A stretch of DNA of 63,283 nucleotides, filler included, from Basidiobolus ranarum (Eukaryota), in NCBI GenBank assembly GCA_040143965.1. It is 18 parts of 18 records of this genome, joined end to end, with 100 filler letters (N's around TTAATTAATTAA, not from the genome) between each part and the next. Parts side by side here need not be neighbours in the genome. Positions count along the whole stretch, not along the records: positions 35,293 to 38,712 come from JASJQH010009377.1; 17 more parts are not named here. One strand, given 5' to 3'. A model generated the notes under the pieces. The model did not search any database. It worked only from the letters and a program-made list of their open reading frames with translations, and was not told the origin of the DNA. The position numbers and the translations under genes are program-made. Positions 9,258-49,257 of this stretch are shown piece after piece; the first letter of the stretch is position 1; every line of letters starts with the position of its first letter.

Positions 9258-9871
9258 AATGCCTGGTTATCCGTTCTTGTGATGGTCAAAGCTGCTAATT
9301 CCATAATTGTGCCATGTACCAATTAACAGTCTTGTATATCCCCAGGCGAGTGATTAATTGGTTTGGGTGGCCAAATATCCCATTTTATCATGTAAGGCAA
9401 ATCAGTAGCATTTGATGTTATTAAAGAAAATCATTCCTTTCTGCCGCGAATGCGATTAACCACAAATCATTGAATCAAGTCGGAGATGGAGCTGGGTAAT
9501 GATTTGAGGTGTTGAGCCTGTTGGCTTGTTGAATATGCTCAAGGTGTTGGCAATGAGTTGAGGCGATATGAATATCTTGGAATCTTTCAGTTCTCTTCAA
9601 AAAACTTGCAACCGTAGATAATATAAGTTGAGTGTAAATGGTTCTACTTCGTATAGCACCGTAATGCTAATAAAAGGATGGGATGAGTAGATTCTTGCAA
9701 GAATATGCATAAAACTTGGTAATGATCATTATCGTGCTCCATATGAAAGTCAATGACTAAGGCACATTCTACGCCATAGGCAGATATACCTCAAATGATG
9801 TCAGATACCAATGTCGATGGTACGATTTGATATAAATAACTTGAAATACCTCTTGCTCAACCGTCGCAAAC

Positions 9872-10504
9872 ATGTATTTTTTCCTACTATTTCTGTTACA
9901 CCTTTACTTGGCGCAAGCGGTCGATGTAGAATTGTCCTTTGCAAACTATAATTGGCCCTACCCCGATGCCAAGTCCCTCTATAGCAGCGTAATGGTTCCA
10001 AAAGGATATGATCCCAAAACATCTTATTGGGGTGTTTTTATGTGGTCATATGGCTACTTCGGCATTCAGAATATGAATGGATCCGCCAACTACATTATGT
10101 CCGTTTGGAACGATGGTAACAAAACGGCCCGAGTCGATCTTGGGCTTCTCAGAGGTGAAGCTTCTGATTGCGAGAATGCAAAGGGTTGCATTGAAGGAGC
10201 AGTTGCCCATGACCTCGTGTTCTCAGAGCCTTGGCAAACGGGTGTACAATATAACTTCATGCTTGATTGCGAAGGCGACGGAGAAACTAGGAAATTGTCA
10301 AGTTATGTTTTCAAGAATGACCATTGGTTATTGATTACTCAGTTTGTCCTCCCCGGTTACAACGAATGCTACTCCCCTCCGTTCTTTCAATTTTTGGAGA
10401 ATCCGGCGTGGAACAGTGGTGCCTGGTGGTTGGAACATGAAGCATCCCGCCATCAAAAGAGAGGGTTTTATTACAACCAGCATATGAAAACTGTCGACTC
10501 TGAC
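9872..10504 (+). CDS. Secreted DUF3472-like protein, no intron in the visible part, truncated by contig end
   Basis: TATAAATA at 9831; signal peptide ending LAQA. Motifs SYW...GYFGIQ...MSVW...W.TG.QY.F...W.LI..F..P...FLEN...RGFY.NQ follow the DUF3472 pattern as recalled. Confidence 0.75.
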
Positions 10505-11879
10505 NNNNNNNNNNNNNNNNNNNNNNNNNNNNNNNNNNNNNNNNNNNNTTAATTAATTAANNNNNNNNNNNNNNNNNNNNNNNNNNNNNNNNNNNNNNNN
10601 NNNNTTGTACAAAGATGAAGTGTTAAATGGTAGAAAGGCTGAAAGGGTCTTGTCAAGTCGTACTTTCATTCGCTTATGGAATCAGTTACTGCCTCAGATT
10701 AGAGTGCTTCCCTCAAAGACTGGTGAATTAAGAGATTCCAACTCTACCAACCATTTAGCTCATGCACAGGCTACTGTACGTCCAACTACATTGGCTGAAT
10801 TCACACTTGACCCGTTTGTATAAAACATTTTCTTCAGTCTTGTCGAGGCTGAATTGTAGTTATTTTATTTGCACATTTTTCTTACATGGATATAAATAAT
10901 CTCGGCCTATTCTTCCCGGTAATAATAAGAAACTACTGCACATAAGGAAACCGCGATATTGTATTTGGCAAGGATGTACTTTAAGTGTACCCAGAGAGGA
11001 CCTTTGACGTCTACTGAGCTACATACATTTAGAGAGTAACGGTGGTTTTTTTACTTATTGCGAACTTTACCGAGCAACAACTCCTCATGAATACCAAGAT
11101 TCCAAGGATCATCTTTTAAAACTACTTCACGTGTTCTACTTGAGTAATTCAGAGGGTGTATTCTACTTCTCTATTGTACTCTCGATTGGGAGCGTCGCTC
11201 TCAGGAAACCATTTTCAATTGAAGAAATCCAACTCAAGATGGTGATTTTGGTTGACGTGACTTTGGAATCCAATCTTAGTACTGTTTGACTTAAAGCGCT
11301 AAACGTTATTTTTTTGGATAGCTTCAATGGTGCATTTCAACTGATGATACTACTTGTAAACATCACTAGCCAAGACCCAAAACAAGTAACAATGTCAAAT
11401 ACTGTGTGAGTGGTTATGGTTTCTGACAATAGGAAAAGACAGGATGAGTTGACACAAATAGAGGCAACTCGATGATGATGCCCTGATCGTCAATATTGCA
11501 TTAAGTACATTATTTGTTAGTGGATGCGGATGTGAATGTCATGTAAAGTTGTTCAGGAGACATGTTCCAAACTCAAGGCCTGATCTTAAACTATGTATCA
11601 AGAACGAGAGCGAAACAGAGGCTTAGTGATCAGCTGGTTAAAGGTGCATAAATCGTCAGCAACGATGAAACAAGAAATGAGGGGTGCTAAGTGTAATTGA
11701 GTATCTTACAACAATGGTTTCTAATTATGATACTGTTCTACCCCTGAGGTTTCCACACCTTATCTCATATAAATATCATCCCCTTCATTAGCAAGCAGAA
11801 CCCTATTCGCGCTGGTCGACTCAAATTAATAGCTCTAGATAATATCTTTGAAAGATCTTCCCTCACATACGTTATCATA

Positions 11880-12824
11880 ATGGGTCTCTTCAAATACGGT
11901 ATCGTTCTTATCCAAGCAATCTCCATCTTGATGGTAGATCAAAGTTCTGCTTTTGTGTACAAAACCTCACAAAGCATTTCTAGCAAGAGCTGGGAGAATG
12001 TCCAAGATCTTGGCTTTTCTCGCATCTCTGTTGGCTTAGATGATGCAGCTTGGGCTATTACTGCGGGACAAGAACTTTATCGTAATACTGATGGTAAGAG
12101 ATGGGCACGTATCCCTGGAAGTCTTTCAGATATTTCTGCTATTAATGCTAATGTGGCTTGGGGAGTTAGTCCAAACAATATCATTTACCGTTATCAAAAT
12201 GGTCAATGGTTTGTAATTAATGGTAAGCTGACCACTGTTTCAGCTGCAGTTCACGACGAGTATGTGCAAAATGTAGAGCATATTTGGGGAATTAGTCCAT
12301 CAAATACACTCTGGTATTGCTACTACCAAAGGACTACTCGAGGCTGCGCCTGGAAAAATATAAACAAGCCAAACCAGTTGCGAGTCATGGCTGTAGCGTC
12401 TGCCGGAGATGGCACAGCTTTTGCTTTGTTTGATGTACGTGATGCTACCGGATATGTAATGTATAGGTGGAATGGCCAAAGTTGGTCACTGATCGATGAA
12501 CGTCTTGTTCAAATCCAAGCAACTTCAAACCGTCGTATTATAGGTGTTAATGCTCTTGGTGAAGTTCGCAAATTCAATCTTGATGACAACACTTGGACTA
12601 CCATCAATAGTTTCAGCAGCACCAGATCCTTCTTTGCCGCTGCGGGTGTAAATGCTTGGATTTTATCTACACAACAATTAGATTGTGTTACTGGTTCTGT
12701 GGCTGTTTGTTACGAGTGGGTAGGAGAGGGGGGTCGTGGTGGTTGTTGTGGGGGTCCGCGTGCAATTTATGGAAGTGAAACTGATGTTACTTATGAGACA
12801 GTCTACGAAACTATCGATGGATAG
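11880..12824 (+). CDS. Secreted tectonin-type (TECPR) beta-propeller lectin, 314 aa, intronless
   Basis: Hydrophobic N-terminus; repeated blades of about 35-45 aa (RISVG..AWAI...LYR...W.RIPGSLSDISA...AWGVS..NIIYRY...W..INGKL..VS); TATAAA near 11768; AATAAA at 12851. Confidence 0.85.
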   Translation: MGLFKYGIVLIQAISILMVDQSSAFVYKTSQSISSKSWENVQDLGFSRISVGLDDAAWAITAGQELYRNTDGKRWARIPGSLSDISAINANVAWGVSPNNIIYRYQNGQWFVINGKLTTVSAAVHDEYVQNVEHIWGISPSNTLWYCYYQRTTRGCAWKNINKPNQLRVMAVASAGDGTAFALFDVRDATGYVMYRWNGQSWSLIDERLVQIQATSNRRIIGVNALGEVRKFNLDDNTWTTINSFSSTRSFFAAAGVNAWILSTQQLDCVTGSVAVCYEWVGEGGRGGCCGGPRAIYGSETDVTYETVYETIDG

Positions 12825-21193: not shown

Positions 21194-21988
21194 CACGAGG
21201 ACTTTGAGCCGCCACATACCCGAGCGGAAGCTCACCATGCTAAGGACCGGAACTCCCGAATGACGGGGGTAGCCCCCAACCCACGACTAAGAGTTTTAGC
21301 TGTCTCAGAGAATGGCTATTCTCATGTGAACAAGGAAATAGCATTCGCGCATGGGATGCAAAATACTATGTTCGGGTTGGGTGACCCACAGATGCACAAC
21401 AACAAAAGCTCCCCATATTTTTTGGGTGGCTATTTCCCCGACAATCAACCAGCCACGTATTTCAAACCTGCTTTAATACAATCAAAATACAAACAGCTTT
21501 ATTATACTCCATCGAAGAGGTTACCGCTATTTCAAGCTGTATTCCACGATAGTGTGATTACTACAAATCACTGGCTGCTTGACAACCTAAAGCTCCAGAA
21601 TATCCAGTCTGATGCCGAGTTGCTGCAAATGTTGTACAATGTACCTCCAATGGTGCATTTAAATTTGGCTACCTCCGATACTAGAATTCAATATCTACTC
21701 CGCATTGACGCTTTCTTCCGGCCTTTACATGAGAGATTAGCGTTCCAGTCTTTGATAGATTTCGAATGGCTATCTAACGACCGTATGGTTCAGGCCACCA
21801 AATTCCAAGATGGAACCAAGTTGATCGCAAACTTCGGTGACCAGTCATATGGTTTGAGCAGCGGTTACGGTCGTAGCCAAACATGCGATTTTGCTGATCA
21901 AACATGTGTCGAGCCCCACTCCATTGTGGCCCTGCTCAAAAATGGTGAAGTTCTTCGGTATAAAAGTGGATCTATTCCCACGCTCTGA
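21194..21988 (+). CDS. Bacterial-type glycoside hydrolase (Glyco_hydro_129-related), C-terminal part; 5' truncated by contig start
   Basis: Frame open from the contig edge. Motifs SENG...IAFAHG.Q...FG..D..M...SPYFLG.YFP...P..YFK, RLPLFQAVFHDSVIT..HW..D.LK, LYNVPP, F.PLHE.L, F.WL..D..VQ.T.F.DG..LIANF; AATAAA downstream. Confidence 0.75.
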   Translation, partial: HEDFEPPHTRAEAHHAKDRNSRMTGVAPNPRLRVLAVSENGYSHVNKEIAFAHGMQNTMFGLGDPQMHNNKSSPYFLGGYFPDNQPATYFKPALIQSKYKQLYYTPSKRLPLFQAVFHDSVITTNHWLLDNLKLQNIQSDAELLQMLYNVPPMVHLNLATSDTRIQYLLRIDAFFRPLHERLAFQSLIDFEWLSNDRMVQATKFQDGTKLIANFGDQSYGLSSGYGRSQTCDFADQTCVEPHSIVALLKNGEVLRYKSGSIPTL

Positions 21989-31768: not shown

Positions 31769-33700
31769 AGGCTATCTCTTCTTGATGAGCAGTGGACATG
31801 AGTGTCATATAGTTTGTCCGATGTGTTACAACTCCTGATGATAGCAGCCTTCCATCAATTACTTCTACAAGGACTGGACTAGATTTCTTGATTGTTGGGA
31901 TAGAGTGGGAATTGGCAAAGGCAGAGTCAATAAAAAGGAGGAAGCACCTGAATCAAGAATTGCAGTTGGTTTTATTGGCTTGGAATTTGGTAGCAGGAGT
32001 GTAATAGGCAGCTTTAATGATTGGTATGACAGCAGAGATTGCAATGTATGGTGAAGAAAGATTTTTTAAAGTGGTTGGCCTAGCTGCATGCCCATTATTG
32101 CAGCTGGGCACTGAAGTTTTCCAATGGTTGGGAAGAGTTCTCTTCAACTTGTACAATTTTGATCTTAAATGCAGGATTCTTTTTTGGACAGGTTCTTGCT
32201 ACATGTCCAGGAGCTCCACAATAGAGGCATAGATTCTCTAGCTGGTGCCAATATTTCTCCTCAGAGCTAAGCTTTCAGAATTGAGTTCCATCAATTTGCA
32301 TAGGGTCATCTGCTTGGGCTGTATTTTAGGTTTGATGGAAGGCAGGTCTGAGAGTAGATGAGGAAGGAGAGAAGAAAGGAGACATATTTCTTTGTTGTTG
32401 TCATTCAAAGAACTGGTTGTCACATTTAATAGCCTGATGAATAGCATCAGTCAAGGTCACTGGGTCAGCCAAAGTGAGTAAAAGATTCTTAATATTTCTT
32501 GGAGTCCATATTGGAATTGACTTATTAGGGCAGATTCTCCCCAATTGTGATTCCAGGCAAGAAGGTGGAATTCCGCAGCATAAGTTGCTGCTGGCTTTGA
32601 CTCTAGTTTAAGTGCACATAGCTTGGTGGCTGAAGTCCTTTCCTTATCTGCATTTCTAAATGTGGCTTTCAATTCAGCAAGAAAGGCAAGGAAGTTTGAA
32701 AGAAGTGGAGAATGACTTTCAATCAATGAAGCAAACCAAGATAGAGCTGTTCCTGATGAGAGTGTTCCCACTAAGCCTACTTTTGTTTGGTGTGAGGGGT
32801 AGCAATGGGGATGTAACTGGATGATCAGCTTTACTTGGTTAATAAAACCACAATAGTTTTGGCAAGTGCCATTAAACTTATTTGGTAAGGAGATCTTGGG
32901 TTCAGGAGTTGAATTTGCAGGATAGTTAGGTGGAGCTGCATTCTGCACTTGAGCAAGAGAAGCACAAAGTTCTTGATTTTCTTACTGAAGCTGAGTAAGA
33001 GCTTGCATGATAACTTCCATTGTGGGGGCTGGTGTAGAGATAATACCTACTATGTTGGGAGGGGGAAGTTTTAAATCCACAAGTTTCTCTAGGAATGATA
33101 ATCACAATGCAATGTCCAGCTTTCTGTTGAAGAAATGATTGGTGCCTTGACAAAAGAATATGGTGGGATCAATGTCCTTTGATCTTGATCAAGTTCTAAA
33201 GTTTCTTTGTTTAAAACCAACTGTAAACTCAACCAGTAGTGTACTGACAAGGATGCACTTAGAGCAATTATCAAAAGGTGGAAGGTACCTTTGCCTCAGC
33301 AGGGAAGCTTGGGAAAGATGGGAAATAACAGGGAAGCTAACCTTGGGGGATTTCAAGGTTGGAGAACAGGGATGGACAGAAGTCTACAGGCAAGTGTAAG
33401 TAGTCTGATCAAACTGTCACAGTAAGGAACTGGACAAGGACTGGAAACAATGACAAGAGGCAAGAAGGCAGGATAGTGCTTGGGTGTAGACCACAAGACA
33501 GTACAAGACAGGGAAGATACTTTGGCAAGAATCTTTATTGTTAACTGGCATTGATCAGACTGAGGCCCAATCCAGGAATACATGGGGCTTATATAGTTAT
33601 TTTGAGGGGAAGCATAATATACTGAATCAGGAATATAAGACTTGTTTGATTTCATTAAGCCAGATCAGGCCAGCAAAAAGTGTGCCAGTATAAATTGGCA
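31769..33700 (-). mobile_element. Decayed Ty3/gypsy 5' region: LTR/leader, gag and protease
   Basis: EPKISLPNKFNG...FINQVKL...GTALSWF...YAAEF...WGESAL..QFQYGL; zinc knuckle LCLYCGAPGHVARTCP; FIDS...VEVIDGR. The right boundary is approximate. Confidence 0.88.
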
Positions 33701-36595: not shown

Positions 36596-37261
36596 CAGTT
36601 GGGGTTATTAATGTTTCGTCAACTCCAGAAATTAAGCAAATTCTCCTCTTCTTCACTTCTACTCCAAGCTATTTTATCAAGTCACAATATGAATGAAACA
36701 GTTGAAACTCCCATTAAAAGATTGAAAGACCCTAGAATATCAGAACAAGAAGTAGCAAAAATGAAATTGAGCGCTGTTTTCTACTTGCAGCAGCTTGGGA
36801 TCAGTCAGCATGACATTCCATGATTGACAAGAAGCGCATAACTGTGCAAAGTGCAATTGGTAGAATAGCTGAACCTGGTATCACTTTGGAAGGAAATCGA
36901 GCACGTTTGGAGTGAGCTGGTTCATGAGTTGCGTAGCCTAAAGGCTACTATTAAAAATACTGAAAGCTTGAGGAAAGCTATAACCAAAGTTTGGGAGAAA
37001 ATGACGATTAAGTTTACTTCGGGATTAGTAGCAAGTATGGGGAGAAGGAGGCAGGCAGTCATAGACGCCAAGGGCGATGCAACAAATTATCGAATTGGAT
37101 GATTTTTTATTTTTCCTAAAAATAAGCATGTATAACTTGTTGTACAAAAAATGTCAGGAAGTTAGACCATGTTGTTCATGAGTAAGATGAACATGAAAAG
37201 TGAGTGTTTATTGTGCTTTTTTTTTGGCAATTTGTGGACGAAGCATTACTAACCCCGACTA
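36596..37261 (+). mobile_element. Internally deleted Tc1-like element (666 bp)
   Basis: TA|CAGTTGGGGTTATTAATGTTTCGTC ... GACGAAGCATTACTAACCCCGACTA|TA. An N-terminal piece (LQQLGISQHDI) is joined to the Tc1 C-terminus IEHVWSEL...LRKAI..VWE...LVASMGRRRQAVIDAKGDATNY; the DDE core is missing. Confidence 0.88.
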
Positions 37262-38368
37262 TATACTCAGGTTTAATTTTAGAGAACTTCCAAAACAGGA
37301 CTTAGAGTTAAGCAAGGTGCTATTTCTATACAGGGAGAAACAGCATGCCCTAGAACCATAGTTTTGCTAATCACAATTTCCGGAACTTGTTTGATAGTTG
37401 ACTTTGTGGTATTATTACTTGCATAACATACACACTAGTATACTTTCTCTTCATATTAAGCTTTCATCGCTTTGAGGATACCAAATGGTAGGCCATTCAT
37501 TAGTGAGTCAATATCATCGAATCAGGTCATTGCCTCGCCCATAGTACCTACAGCAAGTAGCCAAAGGTTTCTCTACAGCGCCATATTCGGCTGCTCAGCC
37601 ACTATTCAAATATTAAACATTACAACTCCAAGTAGTATGTTGTATTTTGAGGCGTAAGCAAGTCAAAGCTCTTAATGGAGTATCTAGAATTCCCACTCTA
37701 CCGGATATATTATACAAGGCAGTTTCGCGTCCCGAGGGAACATGTTCAATAAATATAATGTGAGTACAGCATATATGATGTTTTTAGATAGGATTAGAGC
37801 GCTAATACTAGTAACACTACATGCAACTACAAGTACGGTTTTGGTAATTATCAGTAATGCTATTGACCTATGCCACTACCATCATCCATAATAATAATAT
37901 GCTCATGATAAATGGGGCTATCATTACTTAGTTAGTACTCATCAGTTTTGTTCTAAGCCACCCAAAACTGAGTAGCAAATATTGTTGTAACCCGGTGCGC
38001 TGAAAGTAAAGGATTGACCAAAATCAACATTATAATGGATTGTTGTATCCTGGTACGCCTAAGGCCAGTTGTATCACAGTACGCTAACATCAAGTTCATT
38101 GGTGAATGGTGCAGCACGGCATACGTCTTAGACAAGTTGATTCTTTTCATTATTTGCAGCAATATATATGGCAAGATCGTCAGCCGGATCATCCATGCTG
38201 TATGTAATACACGAATTGTAGTGGATCCCTCTGAGAAAATCATGATCTTCAATCTCTCTAAGAAAAGTATAAGTGCAAGTGGGTTCAACGATTTTAAAAG
38301 GTAGAACTTGCTTGAAGCTTATCTCTCAGGTCCTAACTATTAAACACCAATTACTCTTCTCTTCCATC

Positions 38369-38712
38369 ATGACTGTAGCATCAAACAAAGTGAAGTTCGC
38401 TTATGAGCTGAGCATGCAAGGCAGCGAATTCGAAACCTACGAAAAAGGTCAAACCGTCCGCTTTAATTATGGGGACCCATACAATGACAAATTCCGCTCC
38501 GTGGTTGTAGGTGCTTCAGTTAGATTAAATATCTGGGAGCATAATGAATTTGACACCCCTGTCCCGGGCAAATACGATGAATTAGCCGCAGGTACTTACG
38601 ATAACTTGGACTACTTGAATGGCGTATCCAAATTCCAGGTCATTGGTGCTGAATTCCAATATGGTATCGATGTCAAATTGGTAGATCAATTAAACAAGCC
38701 CGATGGTGCCTA
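38369..38712 (+). CDS. cadA-like: Homologue of Dictyostelium calcium-dependent cell adhesion molecule DdCAD-1 (beta/gamma-crystallin-type N-domain and start of C-domain); truncated by contig end
   Basis: MTVASNKVKF...YEKGQTVRFNYGDPYNDKFRSVVVGASVRLNIWEHNEFDTPVPGKYDELAAG...NGVSKFQV...FQYGIDVKLV aligns almost gap-free to DdCAD-1 as recalled (MSVDANKVKF...[52 protein letters not shown]...NGLSKFQV...FQWAVDVKIV). The true start is ATG 38369. Confidence 0.88.
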
Positions 38713-41697
38713 NNNNNNNNNNNNNNNNNNNNNNNNNNNNNNNNNNNNNNNNNNNNTTAATTAATTAANNNNNNNNNNNNNNNNNNNNNNNNNNNNNNNN
38801 NNNNNNNNNNNNATAACCAAGTCTACTAAGCAAAAGAACTGATACTAAAAAAGCAGAGCTCAAGGATACTTTATCCAGATAGGGGAGCTATAAAATAGAT
38901 TTGCAAGAAGCCACTAAAAGTGGGGTTTGGGACAGTCTATGCTGAGGCATATGAAGTTGCATAGCTAGGAAAGTTACTTACAGACTAAGGATACATATAA
39001 TATGGTGTTATAATTTTGTTTAAGACAGTTGAAGTTTTACTATGTTGACTAAAAAGAATATGCTTCATATTGATCACTCACATCCTGGCCAAACCTTTAA
39101 CTAAAGCAGTATTGGAATTATCAACAAAGAATTTGGCTAAAGAAAATATAAAGTAGTTATTTGAGTGCAACTGCTGAAATCAAGTAAATAGCAACTCATT
39201 TTATGATAACTTTTCATCTAATTCATTGTGACTTTATATTGGCAAATGGCGTTACTACTGACTAATTCTCTTTGCTATCTACAAGGCTAATAACTGCTGT
39301 ATCTGCAGATATACATCAAGGCAAAATACTTTTTACTGATAGTAATAGATCCAGCATATGAAAAGTAACACTTCCACTGCTGCATTTAGCAAGTCCTAGC
39401 AGGCAACTAATTAATTTCTCAGCTTACCACAGCCTACAATCCCTGTTATGACAATAACACTTATTATATCATTGTGGCAAAGACCCACTATACTTAACAA
39501 TACTTAACTACATTCCTCATTGAGTAGTATTGCTTAAATAGGATGCTGTAAAACAGTTTAATAAAGTTTTAATCATAGAAAAGCCTTTGAATTTTTCATG
39601 TGACTATGCTTGCAGCATGGGCAGCAGTGTGTTAAAGGCAGCAATATATTCCACATGCTTTATATAACTAGAAGCCTTCACATTACTGAAGAATATTTGA
39701 CAGCTAAAGCTAATTAGCATAACATATTGTCCACATGGCTAGGAGAAGGAATGTCAGGCCTTCTTCTGATTATCCCTTTTGCAGTGATTTTCTCTCAAAA
39801 AGCTAATAGGTACTTCTTCAAACTATAGTTCTACAATCAACCCTATAGAGGAGGTTAGTACTACCTTACTAGTGCTTGTCAATGTTGATGGAAAGTCTAC
39901 AAACTCTGTTTAAAGAAATAAATTGCCCAGGTCCCAAACTCCAACTAGTATCATTTTGCAAGCAGTGATGGATGGTAAGTGGCTGCATGTTATTGGTGCC
40001 CCCTCTCTATTGCTACTATCAAAGTATGAACCATATTACTACTCAACTTTCATATATTCATGTATTTGCTTTTCCTGCCTGAATCAATATCTAAGCTCAT
40101 GCCAGTTTAAGCTGTAACATCATCTAAAAAAATACTGGTGCTGCAAATGCACAGGTATACTATTGTATAGAAAAGCAAGGTTGGTCAAACATTTTACCTA
40201 TGCTGTTTGCAGTTTCAGTCAGCATGGTAGCCTACAATAGTGTTAAGGATATAAATACACAGTTGATGTAAGGATATTTCATAATCTTCAGAACCCAAGA
40301 GATTATTAATGAGGCCATAATTCACTTCAAGAAGTTACATGACTATATGAAATATATATTAGAATGTTTGCAATATTCACTGATAACTAATAGCTTTTCA
40401 CTCCCTACTTTTCATTATTAACCCACTTACTCTTGTACTTGAAAGCAATCAGTTAGACTGCAATTCTATGCTTCAGCAATGTTAGTTAACAGTAATTGCC
40501 ATACACCATCTAGTTTAGAATTTAAATTGAATTTTCAATTGTATTTCATCCAAACTCTTGTACTCTTAACTTGGTTACATAAATCATGTTGAGTGTTTAA
40601 AAATGAAACTAAAAAACTTGATGAATGTTAGTTTGATGTACATTGAGTTGAAATTAGTTAGTGATGAAGTTAACAGGTTTCCATGATAGGTAGTTTTGGA
40701 AGTTGAGGCTGTCCTTTAATCAAAGCAGTATGAAGAATTGGCTCATACAACTTGCCAAAGTAGCTTTGTGAGTATAAAGTTTCTTCAGCCATACCAATTA
40801 TCAAAAATAAATTTAATTGTCTAATTTTGCTTCTTTTTTAGTGGTTCAGATTGATCTTGGGTATTATTCAATCAGCTGAATATAGTTTTAAGTGGTGTTA
40901 AGTTAAAAAATGGTGGTTTCCTGATTTGTATATGCTGGAAATTACTTGAATCCAGGTACTACAATTTTGGGCATTTGTTAGTGGCTACCAATGGTGCTGT
41001 TACACATTTATTTCCCTTTTGACTGCTTAGTTGATTTAAATGCTTTGTTGTTGGCCTTTTATTGACATCTTCCTTTGTAATCATTGATCAAATAGCTGAA
41101 ATTTCTTAACAAACCTATATCACTTATATCATTTGGGCAACAACATTATACTAGGCTACAGGCCATTAGATTTCCTCTCCTACAATCAAGTTTGATAAAC
41201 ATAGTGAAAGATTGAATCCACCACTTTATTGCCAGAAAGCCTTTATATATCATATTCAAGTTTGTACCTTGGACTCTTAGTCAGATGCAATAATTAAGCA
41301 CCTAGGTTTCTACAGTGAGGCCCTGATTGATTCTTTGATTCTGTTGGCTTAGGCTTGGTCTCATATTTTATAACTACTCTTGAATAATCCAAATTTATAT
41401 ACATTGGAAGCATTCTTTGCTAATGTAAACATGATAGCAAGCCTCTGAGCCATATGATGACCATCAAGTTATATCAAAGTCTTGTGGTTATTTCATCTAG
41501 CCCTATGTGCTTTAGTCATAATCACTAAGTAGGTTATCTGATTTTGGAGTTTTGCTCCCAGCCACCAATCAAATAGTGCCACAATGTAAATTAGCCTTCA
41601 GCCACTCTCTGATTTATTCTGCTTTAAGATATTAGGCTTGCTAACAATATAAATGTTGATACAGAGTTCAATGCCAATTAAGTTTATGCCAAGTAAG

Positions 41698-43509: not shown

Positions 43510-45332
43510 ATGGCTTCCCAAAACAATTTCAATGGCCAATACCCTTCGTAAGTTTGCTTGTATTTATAGTTTTGGAAACATGACAGTATCTCAACCTTTT
43601 ATTTTATCCAGTCATGATAATGATAACTGGAAGAAATCTCTAGCACTTCCTCCCAAAGATAGTCGCCCACAGACTGAGGTACCATCTTCTTTAATTATGC
43701 ACCTCGAAGTATACTATATTCATCCCAATTATTCAGGATGTAACTGCCACCAAGGGCAACGAATTCGAAGATTATTTTTTGAAACGTGAACTATTAATGG
43801 GAATCTTCGAAGCCGGATTCGAACGCCCTTCTCCTATTCAAGAAGAAGCCATTCCTATCGCACTTACGGGAAGAGATGTACTTGCCAGAGCCAAAAATGG
43901 AACTGGAAAAACCGCAGCTTTTGTTATTCCATCTTTAGAAAAAGTTAATACTAAGATGACAAAAATTCAGGCACTTTTACTTGTTCCCACTAGAGAATTA
44001 GCTCTTCAAACCTCGCAAGTTTGTAAAACCCTCGGTAAACATATGGGCGTTCAAGTCATGGTTACCACTGGTGGTACCACATTGAAAGATGATATTATGA
44101 GACTCCAAGAAACCGTTCATGTGTTGGTTGGTACTCCAGGCCGTATTTTAGATTTGGCCGGAAAAGGCGTAGCTGATTTTAGTGAATGCCCTACATTCGT
44201 CATGGATGAGGCCGATAAGCTTTTAAGCCCCGAATTCTCCCCTGTTGTTGAACAACTCTTAACCTTCTTCCCTAAAGACCGTCAAATTATGTTGTTCAGT
44301 GCCACTTTCCCTATTATAGTCAAGCATTTCAAGGTAACCATCATTACTTCTGTTGTTACTTACCTATTCCTTCAAATACTAACAACTGTGTTTTAGGATC
44401 GTCATATGACCAAGCCTTACGAAATTAATCTCATGGATGAGTTGACTCTTCGCGGTGTTACCCAGTATTATGCCTTCGTGGAGGAGCGCCAGAAAGTTCA
44501 TTGTTTAAATACTCTCTTTTCGAAACTCCAAATCAATCAATCCATTATTTTCTGTAATTCTACCAACCGTGTTGAGTTGCTTGCCAAAAAGATCACCCAA
44601 CTGGGCTACTCCTGTTTCTACAGTCATGCTAAAATGCTTCAAAGCCATCGTAATAGAGTGTTCCATGATTTCCGTAATGGTGTGTGCCGTAATTTAGTCT
44701 GCTCCGATCTCCTTACTCGTGGTATTGATATTCAAGCAGTAAACGTTGTCATTAACTTCGATTTCCCCAAGAATGCCGAAACCTACCTTCATCGTATCGG
44801 CCGTAGTGGACGTTTCGGCCATCTTGGTTTAGCCATCAATCTTATTACTTATGAGGACCGTTTCAATCTGTATAAGATTGAGCAAGAGCTCGGCACTGAA
44901 ATTCAACCTATTCCCCCTGTCATCGACAAACGTTTGTATGTAGCCCCCAGTGCATTAGAAGATGCTTCCGAAGCACAGCAGCAACAGAATGTTAACAAGC
45001 AGGTTCAACCCCAGCCTCAACCCCAACCTCAACAGCTTCCATCTGCTCAGCCTCAAATATATCAGCAGCAACAACAACAGCAATTCCAACGTCAACAGCT
45101 TCCTCCTCATGCTTATCAGCAACACCCTCCTCAGTATCCTCAGTTCCAACAGCAACCTCAGTCACAGCCTCCATCTCAGCCACAATATGGGTCACAGCCT
45201 CAAGTACAGTACCCTATACAGCAAGGTAGAATGAACAACAATGGTTATTCTCAGCAAAATCAGCAACCACCACATCATGACGGTAGATCTGGCTCCGGAA
45301 TCAATGGCGGTGGTTTAAGAGCCTTCTCTTAA
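43510..45332 (+). CDS. DHH1: DEAD-box RNA helicase Dhh1/DDX6; exons 43510-43547, 43612-43678, 43737-44333, 44397-45332
   Basis: [79 protein letters not shown] introns with TACTAAC at 44377; Q/P-rich tail. Confidence 0.97.
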
Positions 45333-45847: not shown

Positions 45848-48800
45848 ATGCAAACTTGGCAAAAACTGGTGAAATAAGTTGTCAAACATAGCATCAAAGA
45901 TTAGGCCATATTGGGGAACAAAAACTGACCTATATGATCCAAAATCAGCTTGTTTCAGGCTTGGAAATTGGAAATAACACTATATTGGATCTGTGTGAAG
46001 GTTGCATATATGAAAACATCACAGACAGCCATTTTCAAGTTCTGGAGGGATCAAATCCACTCAGAATTTTTCCCAGATTCATTCTAAACTATGTGCACCC
46101 ATAAGAAATGTCTCACTACGTGGGAAAAGGTACCTTATGACCTTTATTGATGACAAAACAAGATATACTTGGGTATTCTTTCTCAAATCAAAATCCGAAG
46201 CCTTAGCTACATTCATAGCACTACAAAGCAATCATAGCGAAAGAATCAGTGCAAAAAATAAGGGTACTATGGAGTGATAATGGTGGTGAATACTCTTCTA
46301 AAGACTTTACTAGTTCTTGCTCTAAACATGGAATTAAGAAACAAACTACTGTACCTTATACTCCACAGCAAAATGGAGTATCAGAGCATACTAATAGGAC
46401 CATAGTGGAGATGCCAAGATCAATGTTTCATGATCAAAAGTTAGATTACCAATATTGGGCTGAATCTGTCTCTACTGGAGACTATATTACTTAGGTAATG
46501 ACTAAACACTAGATGCAGTTGGTATGGGACAGTTGTACTCAATTTAGACCCAACTTCAGCTACCACATTGACAGAATTGGATGATGTAATCCATGCACCA
46601 AATACAGCCAAGAATCTACTCTCAGTGAGCCAAGCAACAATTCAAAGACTTGATTTTGTATTCTGCAAGGCAGGATGCACTATTAGAGATCAGAATAATA
46701 CCAAGTTAGCTATTGGGATCACAACTCAAAACTTATAAAAGCTAGAAATCAACAAATTGCATTCTGAGTATGTAAACATGGCCAAAACTAGTGTAATAGG
46801 CTGTGAAATGTGGCATAGAAGATTAGGTCACATTGGTGCATCAAACCGAACCCAAATGATCTGAAATCAGCTTGCTTCAGGCTTAAGAATTGAAAATATC
46901 ACTAAATTGGATCTGTGTGAAGGTTGCATATATGGATAACATTACACACAGCTGTTTTCAAGCTCTGGAGAGATCAAATCCACCCAGAATTTTGCCCTGA
47001 CTTGCTCTGACTTATGTGGGCAATGAAAAACATCTCACCAGGTGGGAGAAGGTACATTATGATCTTTGTCAATGACAAAACAAGATTTACTTGGGTATTC
47101 TCTCTCAATACAAAATCCAAAGCCTCAGCTATGTTCAAGGACTAAAAAGCATTGGTAAAGAAGGAATTAGCACAAGAAATAAGGGTACAAAGAAGTGACA
47201 ATGTTGAAGAATAATGCTCTAAAGGCTTTACTAGTTTTTGTTCTAAACATGGAATTAAGCAACAAACTACTGTACTTTATACTCCATAGCAAAATGGAGT
47301 TGGAGAATGAGCTAATCATACCATAGTGGAGAGCCAACATCATTGATACATGTTCAAAATTTAGATCACCAATATTGGGCTGAAGCTCTCTCCATTGCAG
47401 TCTATAACAAAAACATATGCCCAATAAGATTGCTACAGAATATTACTCCATTTGAAGCCCTATATGTATCAAAACCAAGTGTGGATCATCTCAGGATCTT
47501 TGGTTGCATAGTCAATTTCCTAATTTGAGCTAAAAAAGGCTCTATATTGGAACCCAAAAGCAGAAAATGCATACTCAATGGTTATTGTGATGGATCTAAG
47601 GCCAACAGACTGTATGACACCAGAAATGATAAGTTATTTATGTTCAGAGATGTGATTTTGATGAAAAGCAAATTCTTCAACTCAAATCACAGTTCTTGAT
47701 CCAGAAAACACAATCAGCACTATTTGGAATGTGTCTGACAAAATTCCAGCTGTATCGGAGCACCATTCAACCAAAATGCAAGTCCCAATTACATCAGAAG
47801 ATGATTCAGGACCTAAAAGATCATCCAGAAGGGGAATTAAGCCAGGAAACTGGTGAAGCACTCCCAATAATGATGCATATGCTTATGGCACATTTTGTGA
47901 AAAGCCAAAGACTCTAGAGCAAGCTTTGGAGTGTCCAGAATCAAAATCATGGGAAAAAGCAATGTCTGATGAGTGTTCATCACTTCAGGATAACAAAAGT
48001 GGGTTTAAAGTCCTCTACCATCAGGGAGAAAGCCAGTAGGTTGCAAATGTGTCTTCAAAGTCATAAACCAATTTGATGGAACCATAGAGAGGAACAAAGC
48101 AACAGCAGTTGCAAAAGGCTAATCCCAGACTCCAGGAGTTGATTTTGATGAAACCTTTGCTCCAGTGGCTGGGTTTACCTCCATAAGAGCAATCCTGGCA
48201 CTCTCAGTTAACCATAACCTTGACTTACCTCAAATGGATGTAAAATAGTGTCTCAGAATGGAAATCTAGAAGTAGTGGTAGGTGGAGTAACCAGCTTAAT
48301 TTCTTGACCCAAAACATACTGATATGGTCAGTAAACTGCAAAATTGCTATATGAACACAAGCAAGCACTCAGTACATGGCTTAACAAGATAGCTACCTAT
48401 TTGGAATCACTAGAATTCCAAAAATTCACAGCAGATCACAGTATTTACATCGAATTAACCAGAAATAGGATACGTATCTTAACACTATATTTGGATGACT
48501 TGATGATAGCCACAAAATATCTAGAAGCACTAAATCAGGCAAAAAGCTGCTTATCAAACCAATTTTGGATGACTGATATAGGTGAATTAAGTTATTTTCT
48601 TAGAATCCAAATGAAGAGAGATAAACCCAATCAAAAAATAATGCTGAATCAGTCTAAAAACATCCTAGAGATCCTAAAATGCTTCAACAGGGAGAATAGG
48701 AAGCCTGTATTAACATCAATGCATGCCATTGTGAAGTTAATCAAAATTTCATCTGATTTAGCCCAAAATAATTTAAACAAAAGCCAGGAGTTCCCCTATC

Positions 48801-49257
48801 AGTCCATGGTGGGTAGTTTATTGTATACAATGGTTGAAACAAATCTAGACATTGCTGTGGCAGTAGAAATGTAGCCAACTTCTCAAAAGTCTAGGATATG
48901 AGCACAAAACTGCAGTAAAACAAATTTTCAGGTATTTAAGAGGAACTTTAGATCTAGTTCTGGAATACTCTGCCACTCCTGATGCATGAATTTTACCAGG
49001 ATACAGTGATGCAGACTGGGGAAGAAATCATGATGCTAGAATATCAACAAACGGGTACCCATTCCTCTATGGTAAAGAAGCCATAACTTGGAACAGTAAG
49101 AATCATCCAACCGTAGCACTTTGCACTCAGAAGCAGAGTATATGGCAGCCTCTGCTGCTAAACAAGAAGCAATGTGGTTAAGAAAGTTATTTACAGACTT
49201 AGGATACATGCAAAAACATGCTATTACTGTATTTGAAGATAATCATGGTTGTATTTC
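45848..49257 (+). mobile_element. Decayed Ty1/copia family A pol with duplicated integrase region, RT and RNase H
   Basis: WHRRLGH, CEGC, FIDDKTR, SDNGGEY, PQQNGVSE, YWAE, IFGC, ETFAPVA, LYLDDL, YQSMVGSLLY, GYSDADW, EAEYMAAS; many stops and frameshifts. Confidence 0.93.

What the first reader, a model, noticed from the sequence alone, without database searches (positions are those of the whole stretch)
38369..38712. Close homologue of the Dictyostelium cell-adhesion protein DdCAD-1 in a fungal assembly
Seen: a 114-aa open frame with no intron and no signal peptide, cut by the contig end. Known: DdCAD-1 (cadA, gp24) is a Ca2+-dependent homophilic adhesion protein of social amoebae with a beta/gamma-crystallin N-domain and an Ig-like C-domain, exported without a signal peptide. 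By eye roughly half the residues match DdCAD-1 as I recall it, including NKVKF, TVRFN.GD..NDKF, NIWEHNE.DTP.PGK and NG.SKFQV, and the match runs on into the second domain. The same contig carries a eukaryotic Tc1 element. Inference: a horizontally acquired (amoebozoan or bacterial) Ca2+-dependent adhesin or lectin-like protein in a fungus, which I am not aware of being functionally described.
Basis: partly seen in the sequence, partly recalled or inferred. Interest (0 to 1): 0.88.

Follow-up and report, generated by a model that had tools for sequence, protein, structure and literature searches.

The report
Slime-mould adhesion gene in a fungus
A fungus of the genus Basidiobolus carries several copies of a small calcium-dependent cell-adhesion gene otherwise known from social amoebae, most likely gained by gene transfer; the copy examined here is real but cut short by the end of its assembly piece.

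Summary
ATG 38369 opens a 114-codon frame that runs to the end of a 3,420-base contig (35293..38712; the window is 18 small contigs joined by N spacers). It matches Pfam Crystall_3 (E 5.5e-22) and solved DdCAD-1 (1yhp, E 2.2e-35; 63 of 115 identical to cadA). A 94% identical full-length protein of Basidiobolus ranarum (213 aa) matches DdCAD-1 end to end (E 1.6e-79, 60.8% identity), with both Crystall_3 and Membrane_bind domains and a model at TM 0.90 to 1yhp.

B. ranarum holds several diverged copies. No other fungus appeared in three large searches. Neurospora APP (5z6d) shares the architecture but is distant (26% identity). Bacterial two-domain relatives are 28-37% identical.

In trees the fungal proteins fall inside or right beside the dictyostelid family, nearest the Dictyostelium cadA/cad3 group. 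AU tests do not reject a position outside all dictyostelids (p 0.064-0.24). The contig's composition fits the other window contigs.

Best reading: a real fungal member of the DdCAD-1 family, gained from the dictyostelid lineage and then multiplied. Contamination is not excluded. Function (Ca2+-dependent surface adhesion) is inferred only. GenBank already names one copy 'putative calcium-dependent cell adhesion molecule 3'; my searches found no paper on it.

The parts
38369..38712 (+). 5' part of a DdCAD-1-family gene: 114 codons plus 2 bases, cut by the contig end. No intron is needed and there is no signal peptide.
   Evidence: 94% identical to the full-length B. ranarum protein P0038.
38381..38644 (+). 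Beta/gamma-crystallin-type N-domain (Pfam Crystall_3, residues 5-92).
   Evidence: 78.2 bits, E 5.5e-22. All 7 invariant and 7 of 8 nearly invariant N-domain columns of the 31-sequence family alignment are kept.
38666..38712 (+). First ~15 residues of the Ig-like C-domain (Pfam Membrane_bind starts at residue 100 in the full-length paralogue). The rest is lost at the contig end.
38273..38368 (+). In-frame open stretch upstream with no ATG. Taken as 5' untranslated leader or promoter-proximal DNA.
   Evidence: M1 aligns with M1 of P0038 and residue 1-2 of DdCAD-1.
36869..37102 (+). Possible degenerate tail of a Tc1/mariner-type transposase. Weak evidence; not part of the gene.
   Evidence: No Pfam hit. 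Sleeping Beauty transposase residues 167-230 at E 0.3. Atlas cluster with DDE_3 on 25% of members.
38713..38812 (.). Artificial spacer between contigs (44 N, TTAATTAATTAA, 44 N). This is the 'contig end'.

Best explanation
The frame is the 5' half of a genuine gene of Basidiobolus (most likely B. ranarum) that belongs to the DdCAD-1 (cadA/cad3) family of social amoebae. A full copy encodes a 213-residue, leaderless, soluble protein with two parts: an N-terminal beta/gamma-crystallin-type domain and a C-terminal Ig-like 'Membrane_bind' domain.

The gene most likely entered the Basidiobolus lineage by horizontal transfer from the dictyostelid lineage. The source would have been near the Dictyostelium cadA/cad3 group, and not any sampled species. 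The gene then multiplied into several copies that are 89-94% identical.

By analogy with DdCAD-1 I infer how it works. The N-domain binds Ca2+ and makes protein-protein (homophilic) contacts. The C-domain holds the protein on a cell surface or membrane, which it reaches without a signal peptide.

Shown: family membership, architecture, fold, several copies, and composition like the other contigs. Inferred: the transfer and its direction, Ca2+ binding, adhesion and export.
For: Family:
- Crystall_3 E 5.5e-22; 1yhp E 2.2e-35.
- The full-length paralogue P0038 is 107 of 114 identical to the window protein. It matches 1yhp over residues 2-210 at E 1.6e-79.
- P0038 carries Membrane_bind (137.6 bits) plus Crystall_3 (82.4 bits).
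- Its model has pLDDT 94.9 and Foldseek rank 1 is 1yhp: TM 0.90/0.91, rmsd 1.9 A, 59% identity.

Fungal host and several copies:
- The cluster-mates are all B. ranarum: P0038 (213 aa, on a 21,830-base contig), P0037 and P0039. A second 89%-identical type, P0003/P0020, lies on further contigs.

Composition:
- ORF GC 43.6% and GC3 47.4%, inside the range of 7 other Pfam-supported ORFs of the window (GC 34-46%, GC3 31-50%).
- The contig ranks 3rd nearest of 18 to the trinucleotide centroid.
- The 3-kb non-coding flank is 37% GC.

Transfer:
- P0038 is 60.8% identical to cadA, 60.7% to D. purpureum P0054 and 50-58% to other dictyostelid members. cadA itself is only 46.5-52.6% identical to those members.
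- Bacteria are at 28-37% identity.
- The eukaryote clade has support 100/99. Basidiobolus plus group-4 cadA/cad3 has 86/96.
- In the N-domain tree, Basidiobolus plus group-4 has 100/100. In the quick C-domain tree, Basidiobolus plus P0054 plus the other dictyostelids has 98.
- A four-residue insertion after HN[ED] is shared by the fungus and all dictyostelids and is absent from all 9 bacterial-type rows (4 named bacteria, 5 unnamed).
- No other fungus appears among 17 hits of an exhaustive phmmer of 1.84 billion representatives, nor among 26 hits of a profile search.
- The family occurs in Cavenderia, Heterostelium, Acytostelium, Synstelium, Polysphondylium and Dictyostelium. That favours the direction amoeba to fungus.
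Against: - AU tests do not reject a tree with all dictyostelid-type rows as one clade and Basidiobolus outside: p 0.064 (39 rows), 0.238 (28 rows) and 0.237 (N-domain).
- In the 28-row tree Basidiobolus sits in an unresolved basal polytomy. The bacterial root is distant.
- The N- and C-domain trees place the root differently.
- The contig itself carries no recognisably fungal gene. It shares no repeat with the other 17 contigs, so its link to the fungus rests on composition and on the assembly's labels.
- No genome, reads or coverage could be examined.
- No homologue from any other Basidiobolus species turned up. That fits a recent gain but also fits a contaminant.
- The window copy is truncated, so whether it is intact is unknown.
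- Fungi have walls and no contractile vacuoles (general knowledge), so the Dictyostelium export route cannot apply as such.
- The distant fungal relative APP is, as I recall, an abundant fruiting-body protein and not an adhesin.
Confidence: 0.6

Rival explanations
1. Contaminant. The CAD-bearing contigs come from an unsampled amoebozoan (dictyostelid-like) organism sequenced together with the fungus, not from the fungal genome.
For: - Five of the six CAD-bearing contigs are short: 1,084, 1,586, 2,133, 2,847 and 3,420 bases.
- This contig has no fungal marker and shares no repeat with the other window contigs.
- No other Basidiobolus species gave a hit.
- Dictyostelids themselves carry several paralogues.
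Against: - Composition matches the other 17 contigs: rank 3 of 18, and GC3 inside their range.
- The flank is 37% GC. As I recall, Dictyostelium intergenic DNA is far more AT-rich. Some other dictyostelids are less extreme, so this is a weak argument.
- One copy lies on a 21.8-kb annotated contig.
- The protein is at most 61% identical to any sampled dictyostelid.
- Two metagenome scans found no close relative.
- Dictyostelids need bacterial prey, so they are unlikely passengers of an axenic fungal culture (inference).
Confidence: 0.15
2. Ancient vertical inheritance. The family was in the common ancestor of Amoebozoa and fungi, was lost almost everywhere, and survives in Basidiobolus and, much diverged, as APP in Ascomycota.
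For: - AU tests allow Basidiobolus to sit outside all dictyostelids.
- A two-domain relative exists in Neurospora (5z6d).
Against: - Basidiobolus is closer to cadA (60.8%) than cadA is to dictyostelid paralogues or orthologues (46.5-52.6%). That is hard to fit with a split older than the dictyostelid radiation.
- APP is more distant from P0038 (52.6 bits, 26% identity) than the bacterial-type (unnamed metagenome) relative P0056 is (37% identity). P0056 in turn scores 82.7 bits against APP, so APP is not the orthologue.
- No other fungal hit was found.
Confidence: 0.07
3. Independent acquisition from bacteria, where the same two-domain protein exists.
For: - Two-domain bacterial homologues occur in Photobacterium, Halomonas, Aeromonas and Pantoea.
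- The nearest large Atlas cluster is 75% bacterial.
- Basidiobolus genomes are reported to hold many HGT candidates, 2-5% of genes (PMC7466969, passages).
Against: - Only 28-37% identity to bacteria, against 50-61% to dictyostelids.
- The fungus-plus-dictyostelid clade has support 100/99-100.
- Insertions are shared with dictyostelids.
Confidence: 0.03
4. Functional rival, independent of origin. In the fungus the protein is not an adhesin. It would be an abundant Ca2+-binding structural or stress protein of spores or resting cells, like other microbial beta/gamma-crystallins (Neurospora APP, Physarum spherulin 3a, Myxococcus protein S).
For: - Foldseek lists APP, spherulin 3a (1hdf) and protein S (1nps, 1prr) as fold relatives of the N-domain.
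- The protein has no leader peptide.
- Bacterial homologues are also leaderless, stand-alone genes among unrelated neighbours.
- Fungi lack the contractile-vacuole export route (general knowledge).
Against: - The closest relative by far is the experimentally shown adhesion molecule DdCAD-1.
- The C-domain that, as I recall, tethers DdCAD-1 to the membrane is highly conserved in P0038, including PIPKLTPPDSEIV and VTQDDNTSFIF.
Confidence: 0.35

Closest known systems
Dictyostelium discoideum DdCAD-1 (cadA, gp24; PDB 1yhp/2b1o) and its paralogue cad3 (DDB_G0285817)
   Same: Same length (213 aa in the full fungal paralogue), same two domains in the same order, no signal peptide and no membrane span. 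The full paralogue is 60.8% identical to cadA and 60.5% to cad3; the window fragment is 54.8% and 57.8% identical. Model TM is 0.90.
   Different: The host is a walled filamentous fungus without aggregative development or contractile vacuoles. There are one-residue indels relative to cadA. The C-domain resembles D. purpureum P0054 and the other dictyostelid members more than D. discoideum cadA. Function is untested.
Neurospora crassa abundant perithecial protein, APP (PDB 5z6d, 5z6e; 'DUF1881 domain-containing protein')
   Same: A fungal protein with the same beta/gamma-crystallin plus Ig-like build and similar length (named as APP in PMC11446221, passage).
   Different: Only 26% identical and 52.6 bits, against 269 bits for DdCAD-1. 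Whole-chain TM is 0.51 because the domains are oriented differently. It is not the orthologue of the Basidiobolus gene.
Bacterial two-domain 'beta/gamma crystallin domain-containing proteins' (Photobacterium galatheae, Halomonas stenophila, Aeromonas jandaei, Pantoea sp.)
   Same: Crystall_3 plus Membrane_bind, about 200-215 aa, leaderless.
   Different: 28-37% identity. They lack the four-residue insertion and the PIPKL-type segment of the eukaryotic proteins and form a separate clade.
Single-domain microbial beta/gamma-crystallins (Physarum spherulin 3a, Myxococcus protein S, nitrollin, hahellin)
   Same: The fold of the N-domain (TM by target 0.61-0.76).
   Different: No Membrane_bind domain. 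Sequence identity is 16-21%.

Membership tests
DdCAD-1 family (Pfam Crystall_3 + Membrane_bind) | N-terminal beta/gamma-crystallin-type domain scoring above the Crystall_3 gathering cut-off | tested here: met
   Window protein: 78.2 bits against 27.3, residues 5-92.
DdCAD-1 family (Pfam Crystall_3 + Membrane_bind) | C-terminal Ig-like Membrane_bind domain | tested here: inconclusive
   The window copy ends at residue 114. Only residues 100-113 of the domain are present, and they align. The 94% identical full-length paralogue P0038 has it at 137.6 bits against a cut-off of 25.
DdCAD-1 family (Pfam Crystall_3 + Membrane_bind) | End-to-end colinear similarity to DdCAD-1, with no signal peptide or membrane span | tested here: met
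   P0038 residues 2-210 against 1yhp 1-210, E 1.6e-79. The window fragment aligns 3-113 to 2-112. The N-terminus is hydrophilic.
DdCAD-1 family (Pfam Crystall_3 + Membrane_bind) | Two-beta-sandwich fold of DdCAD-1 | tested here: met
   AlphaFold2 model of P0038, pLDDT 94.9. 1yhp TM 0.90/0.91, rmsd 1.9 A. The predictor may have learnt from 1yhp.
DdCAD-1 family (Pfam Crystall_3 + Membrane_bind) | Ca2+ binding | not testable with these tools
   The positions of the recalled beta/gamma-crystallin motif are the same as in DdCAD-1 (N39-D40...S44; N84-G85..S87). The actual Ca2+ ligands of DdCAD-1 (Lin et al. 2006) could not be read here.
DdCAD-1 family (Pfam Crystall_3 + Membrane_bind) | Homophilic, EDTA/EGTA-sensitive cell-cell adhesion, and surface display by a non-classical route | not testable with these tools
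   Known for DdCAD-1 (PMC3216324 passages; PMC2138044 title and start of abstract). There are no data for the fungus.
Neurospora APP-type fungal family | Closest relatives are ascomycete APP proteins (orthology) | tested here: not met
   5z6d scores 52.6 bits at 26% identity, against 269 bits at 59-61% for DdCAD-1.
Tc1/mariner transposon (claimed on the same contig) | DDE transposase domain and terminal inverted repeats | tested here: not met
   No Pfam transposase hit on 5 ORFs, nor at E up to 10 on 3 pieces. No convincing inverted repeats flank 36.5-37.1 kb. Only a weak match to the tail of the SB transposase, E 0.3.

The most novel reading that the evidence does not exclude
Basidiobolus has put a dictyostelid developmental adhesion molecule to its own use. 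The leaderless protein would be exported by a fungal unconventional route and mediate Ca2+-dependent sticking: of its gut-stage cells or adhesive conidia to each other, to host surfaces, or even to amoebae. That would make it the first cell-cell adhesion molecule known to have moved between an amoeba and a fungus. It would also be a second, independent system in which to find the still unknown membrane receptor and export path of DdCAD-1.
Probability: 0.2. Interest if true: 0.7.

Novelty: new member of a known kind. Interest (0 to 1): 0.5.

Why it matters
DdCAD-1 is a textbook early adhesion molecule of Dictyostelium development. In the searches run here, its close family was otherwise confined to dictyostelids.

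A 55-61% identical, multi-copy version in a gut-associated, opportunistically pathogenic fungus would be a clear case of eukaryote-to-eukaryote gene transfer into a lineage already reported to hold many transferred genes. It would widen the known range of a family whose export route and membrane anchor are still unsolved.

It also shows that the two-domain build (beta/gamma-crystallin plus Ig-like) spans bacteria, amoebae and two fungal phyla. That helps to frame how this adhesion module arose.

The claim stays modest. The family and fold are known, and a GenBank name already points to it. Neither the fungal origin of the contig nor any function has been shown experimentally.

Tried and rejected
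- Whole-genome search of the window's assembly: none is held.
- Word-index search among longer proteins: 471 candidates, none significant. It missed the 213-aa relatives found later, which shows that these searches are not exhaustive.
- Metagenome scans: with P0038, 74 pattern matches and no relative. With an 8-sequence alignment, 379 matches and one locus, L004, at 35% identity.
With 8 bacterial-type rows it gave 3 loci: Photobacterium (2) and Halomonas (1). The neighbours in L001 (HlyD, TetR, ACT, GNAT) say nothing about function.
- Repeat links between this contig and the other 17: none by blastn, by blastn with word size 7, or by tblastx.
- Tc1 element: no Pfam support.
- Homodimer prediction for P0038 (two copies): no verdict, score 0.26 and 0.10 against a mark of 0.32. 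This counts neither for nor against binding.
- Earlier findings of this scan: nothing on this genome or this sequence.
- Literature: no paper linking Basidiobolus or fungi to DdCAD-1 homologues. The search was unproductive. The Ca2+ ligand residues of DdCAD-1 could not be read; only reference entries for Lin et al. 2006 were seen.
- Bacterial-donor and vertical-descent readings were considered and ranked low (see rivals).

Full report
WHAT IS THERE

The window is not one stretch of genome. It is 18 contigs of 3,405-3,437 bases, each pair joined by 44 N, TTAATTAATTAA and 44 N. The finding sits at the 3' end of the eleventh contig (35293..38712).

ATG 38369 is the first ATG after a stop at 38270-38272. 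The frame then stays open for 114 codons plus two bases, up to the last base of the contig. This is protein P0001. The N-terminus (MTVASNKVKF...) is hydrophilic, with no leader.

IS THE SIMILARITY REAL?

Yes.
- Pfam Crystall_3 matches residues 5-92 at 78.2 bits (cut-off 27.3), E 5.5e-22.
- Against all solved structures the best hit is DdCAD-1 (1yhp/2b1o): E 2.2e-35, residues 3-113 on 2-112, with two single-residue gaps.
- BLASTP gives 63 of 115 identical to D. discoideum cadA (P0066) and 67 of 116 to cad3 (P0052).
- Residues 100-113 align with the first strand of the second domain.

WHOSE GENE IS IT, AND IS THERE A FULL COPY?

The 90% cluster that holds the annotated 109-aa product, 100% identical to the window ORF over 96% of it and listed with a 3,420-base contig, the length of this one, also holds three B. 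ranarum proteins:
- KAK9766041.1 (P0038): 213 aa, on a 21,830-base contig.
- KAK9659758.1 (P0037): an 82-aa C-terminal fragment.
- KAK9759526.1 (P0039): 93 aa, named 'putative calcium-dependent cell adhesion molecule 3'.

A second type, 89% identical, is P0003/P0020 on two more contigs. So the window is most likely B. ranarum, and the fungus's assembly holds several diverged copies.

P0038 is 107 of 114 identical to the window fragment. It matches DdCAD-1 from residue 2 to 210 at E 1.6e-79. It carries Membrane_bind (137.6 bits) as well as Crystall_3 (82.4 bits). It is 129 of 212 (60.8%) identical to cadA.

A model built on a 31-sequence alignment has mean pLDDT 94.9. Its best structural match is 1yhp at TM 0.90/0.91, rmsd 1.9 A. 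The predictor may have seen 1yhp in training.

All 7 invariant and 7 of 8 nearly invariant N-domain columns of the family alignment are kept in the window copy. The exception is V for L at position 86, as in P0038.

HOW WIDE IS THE FAMILY?

An exhaustive phmmer of 1,835,955,588 cluster representatives found only 17 proteins at E up to 0.001. Six were at E up to 1e-10 and one at E up to 1e-30. The last is a B. ranarum copy.

A profile search found 26 (names):
- 12 from named dictyostelids: Dictyostelium discoideum, D. purpureum, D. firmibasis, Polysphondylium violaceum, Acytostelium subglobosum, Heterostelium album, Cavenderia fasciculata and Synstelium polycarpum.
- 4 from named bacteria: Photobacterium, Halomonas, Aeromonas and Pantoea.
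- 10 without an organism name.
- No fungus. The B. ranarum cluster representative, at 109 aa, fell below that search's length limit.

These word-index searches are not exhaustive. One of them missed all the 213-aa relatives.

Two metagenome scans found nothing close.

The solved Neurospora crassa abundant perithecial protein (5z6d) has the same two-domain build. It is distant: 52.6 bits and 26% identity (named in PMC11446221, passage seen). The bacterial-type (unnamed metagenome) relative P0056 is nearer to P0038 (37%) than APP is. So a characterised fungal relative exists, but it is not the orthologue.

ORIGIN

Pairwise identities:
- P0038 is 60-61% identical to the Dictyostelium cadA/cad3/P0054 group.
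- It is 50-58% identical to the other dictyostelid members.
- It is 30-37% identical to three bacterial or bacterial-type relatives in that call; 28% is the lowest in the profile search.
- cadA is only 46.5-52.6% identical to those other dictyostelid members.

The fungal protein therefore lies within the span of dictyostelid diversity. That is hard to fit with descent from the common ancestor of fungi and Amoebozoa.

The alignment shows a four-residue insertion after HN[ED] and the PIPKLTPPDSEIV segment. Both are shared by the fungus and all dictyostelids and are absent from all 9 bacterial-type rows (4 named bacteria, 5 unnamed).

The 39-row tree used 216 columns and rooted on the bacterial and bacterial-type rows. 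I left out three groups:
- near-identical cluster members;
- the partial B. ranarum rows P0003, P0020 and P0037;
- the repeat proteins P0005, P0014, P0018 and P0019.

In that tree the eukaryote clade has support 100/99. Basidiobolus joins group-4 cadA/cad3/P0054 at 86/96, and all the other dictyostelid rows form a clade at 92/92.

The 28-row tree dropped the partial rows P0001, P0039 and P0059. It also dropped the long rows P0006-P0009, P0011, P0012, P0013 and P0060. There the second clade is 100/99, but Basidiobolus sits in an unresolved basal polytomy with the cadA-type rows.

By domain (exploratory):
- The N-domain tree puts Basidiobolus with the group-4 rows at 100/100.
- The quick C-domain tree puts it with P0054 and the other dictyostelids at 98, excluding D. 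discoideum and D. firmibasis cadA/cad3.

Both domain trees have it nested. Against this, AU tests of 'all dictyostelid-type rows are one clade' gave p 0.064, 0.238 and 0.237. The group was named after I had seen the first tree, and the bacterial root is long. So nesting is favoured but not established.

The family is present in every sampled dictyostelid genus, and among fungi only in B. ranarum. The likelier direction of transfer is therefore amoeba to fungus (inference).

CONTAMINATION

For a resident gene:
- ORF GC is 43.6% and GC3 47.4%, inside the range of seven other Pfam-supported ORFs of the window.
- The contig is third nearest of 18 to the trinucleotide centroid.
- The non-coding flank is 37% GC.
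- One copy is on a 21.8-kb contig.
- There are several diverged copies.
- No sampled organism is closer than 61% identity.

Against, or left open:
- The contig has no fungal marker gene and shares no repeats with the other contigs.
- Five of the six CAD-bearing contigs are short.
- No other Basidiobolus species gave a hit.
- Coverage and reads could not be examined.

Basidiobolus genomes are reported to contain HGT candidates at 2-5% of genes, with composition like resident genes (PMC7466969, passages seen). That study, as I recall, looked at bacterial donors. Its supplements were not seen.

HOW IT LIKELY WORKS

DdCAD-1 is a 213-residue, Ca2+-dependent adhesion molecule without a membrane span or cytoplasmic domain (PMC3216324, passages). 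It lacks a signal peptide and reaches the surface through contractile vacuoles (PMC2138044, title and start of abstract).

As I recall from Lin et al. 2006, of which only reference entries were seen, the N-domain makes the homophilic contact and the C-domain tethers the protein to the membrane.

The fungal protein keeps both domains at about 60% identity. I therefore infer a Ca2+-binding, surface-associated binding protein. Since fungi lack contractile vacuoles, its export, if any, must differ.

The main functional rival is a non-adhesive, abundant Ca2+-binding protein of spores or resting structures, as in other microbial beta/gamma-crystallins (fold relatives). Bacterial homologues are leaderless, stand-alone genes among unrelated neighbours. 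A homodimer prediction gave no verdict and is not used as evidence.

THE TC1 CLAIM

No Pfam transposase hit was found, and no flanking inverted repeats. The 77-aa frame at 36869..37102 weakly resembles the last 64 residues of Sleeping Beauty transposase (E 0.3). It also resembles an Atlas cluster in which 25% of members carry DDE_3. At most this is a decayed remnant.

NOVELTY AND VERDICT

The family, fold and architecture are known. GenBank already labels one copy by similarity.

No paper linking Basidiobolus or any fungus to a close DdCAD-1 homologue was found in the searches. That library lacks most subscription journals.

I class the finding as a new member of a known kind: a probable amoeba-to-fungus transfer of an adhesion gene. 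Interest is moderate at 0.5. My confidence is about 0.97 that it belongs to the family, about 0.8 that it is truly fungal, and about 0.4 that it acts in adhesion.

Noticed in passing
window 1-63283: The window is a chain of 18 contigs of 3,405-3,437 bases, sorted by length and joined by 44 N + TTAATTAATTAA + 44 N. GC per contig is 33.5-40.8%. Features that run into a spacer are cut by contig ends, not by biology.
   Followed up: yes
window 11748-12824 (+): A 358-aa open frame with a Tectonin domain (Pfam E 7.3e-31). It matches solved Tectonin 2 (5fsb) at E 1.3e-20. As I recall, tectonins were first described in the slime mould Physarum, so this may be another lectin-like gene worth an origin check in this fungus.
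   Followed up: partly
window 21194-21988 (+) and 9845-10504 (+): Fragments of a GH129 glycoside hydrolase (E 1.6e-67) at a contig start, and of a DUF3472 protein (E 7e-21) at a contig end. I recall both families as mainly bacterial. They are possible further transferred genes, in line with the reported HGT load of Basidiobolus.
   Followed up: no
window 43695-45332 (+): A DEAD-box helicase split into two same-frame ORFs (DEAD, Helicase_C). The 'stop' at 44394-44396 is the AG end of what looks like a short intron (...ctaac...ttttag|gat). The contigs therefore carry spliceosomal introns with a fungal-type branch site.
   Followed up: partly
window 32457-32981 (-) and 48335-48874 (+): Retroelement fragments: a Ty3-type gag (DUF4939/Retrotrans_gag) and a copia-type reverse transcriptase (RVT_2).
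   Followed up: no
proteins P0037 and P0001 (B. ranarum contigs of 1,084 and 3,420 bases): The 82-aa C-terminal fragment P0037 is, by eye, about as similar to P0038 as the window fragment is (94%). It could be the missing 3' half of the window's gene on another small contig. The two fragments do not overlap (17 residues are missing between them), so this could not be tested.
   Followed up: partly
proteins P0004, P0034, P0040, P0042, P0044, P0059, P0080: A tight group of unnamed 214-aa DdCAD-1-like proteins from metagenome or Logan contigs of up to 175 kb. They branch inside the dictyostelid clade (98/94 and 100/99) and are probably unsampled dictyostelids.
   Followed up: partly
protein P0012 (Cavenderia fasciculata, 1,169 aa): A dictyostelid protein in which the two-domain DdCAD-1 module is fused to a long extracellular region with a membrane span near the C-terminus. 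It would be a membrane-anchored form of the family.
   Followed up: no
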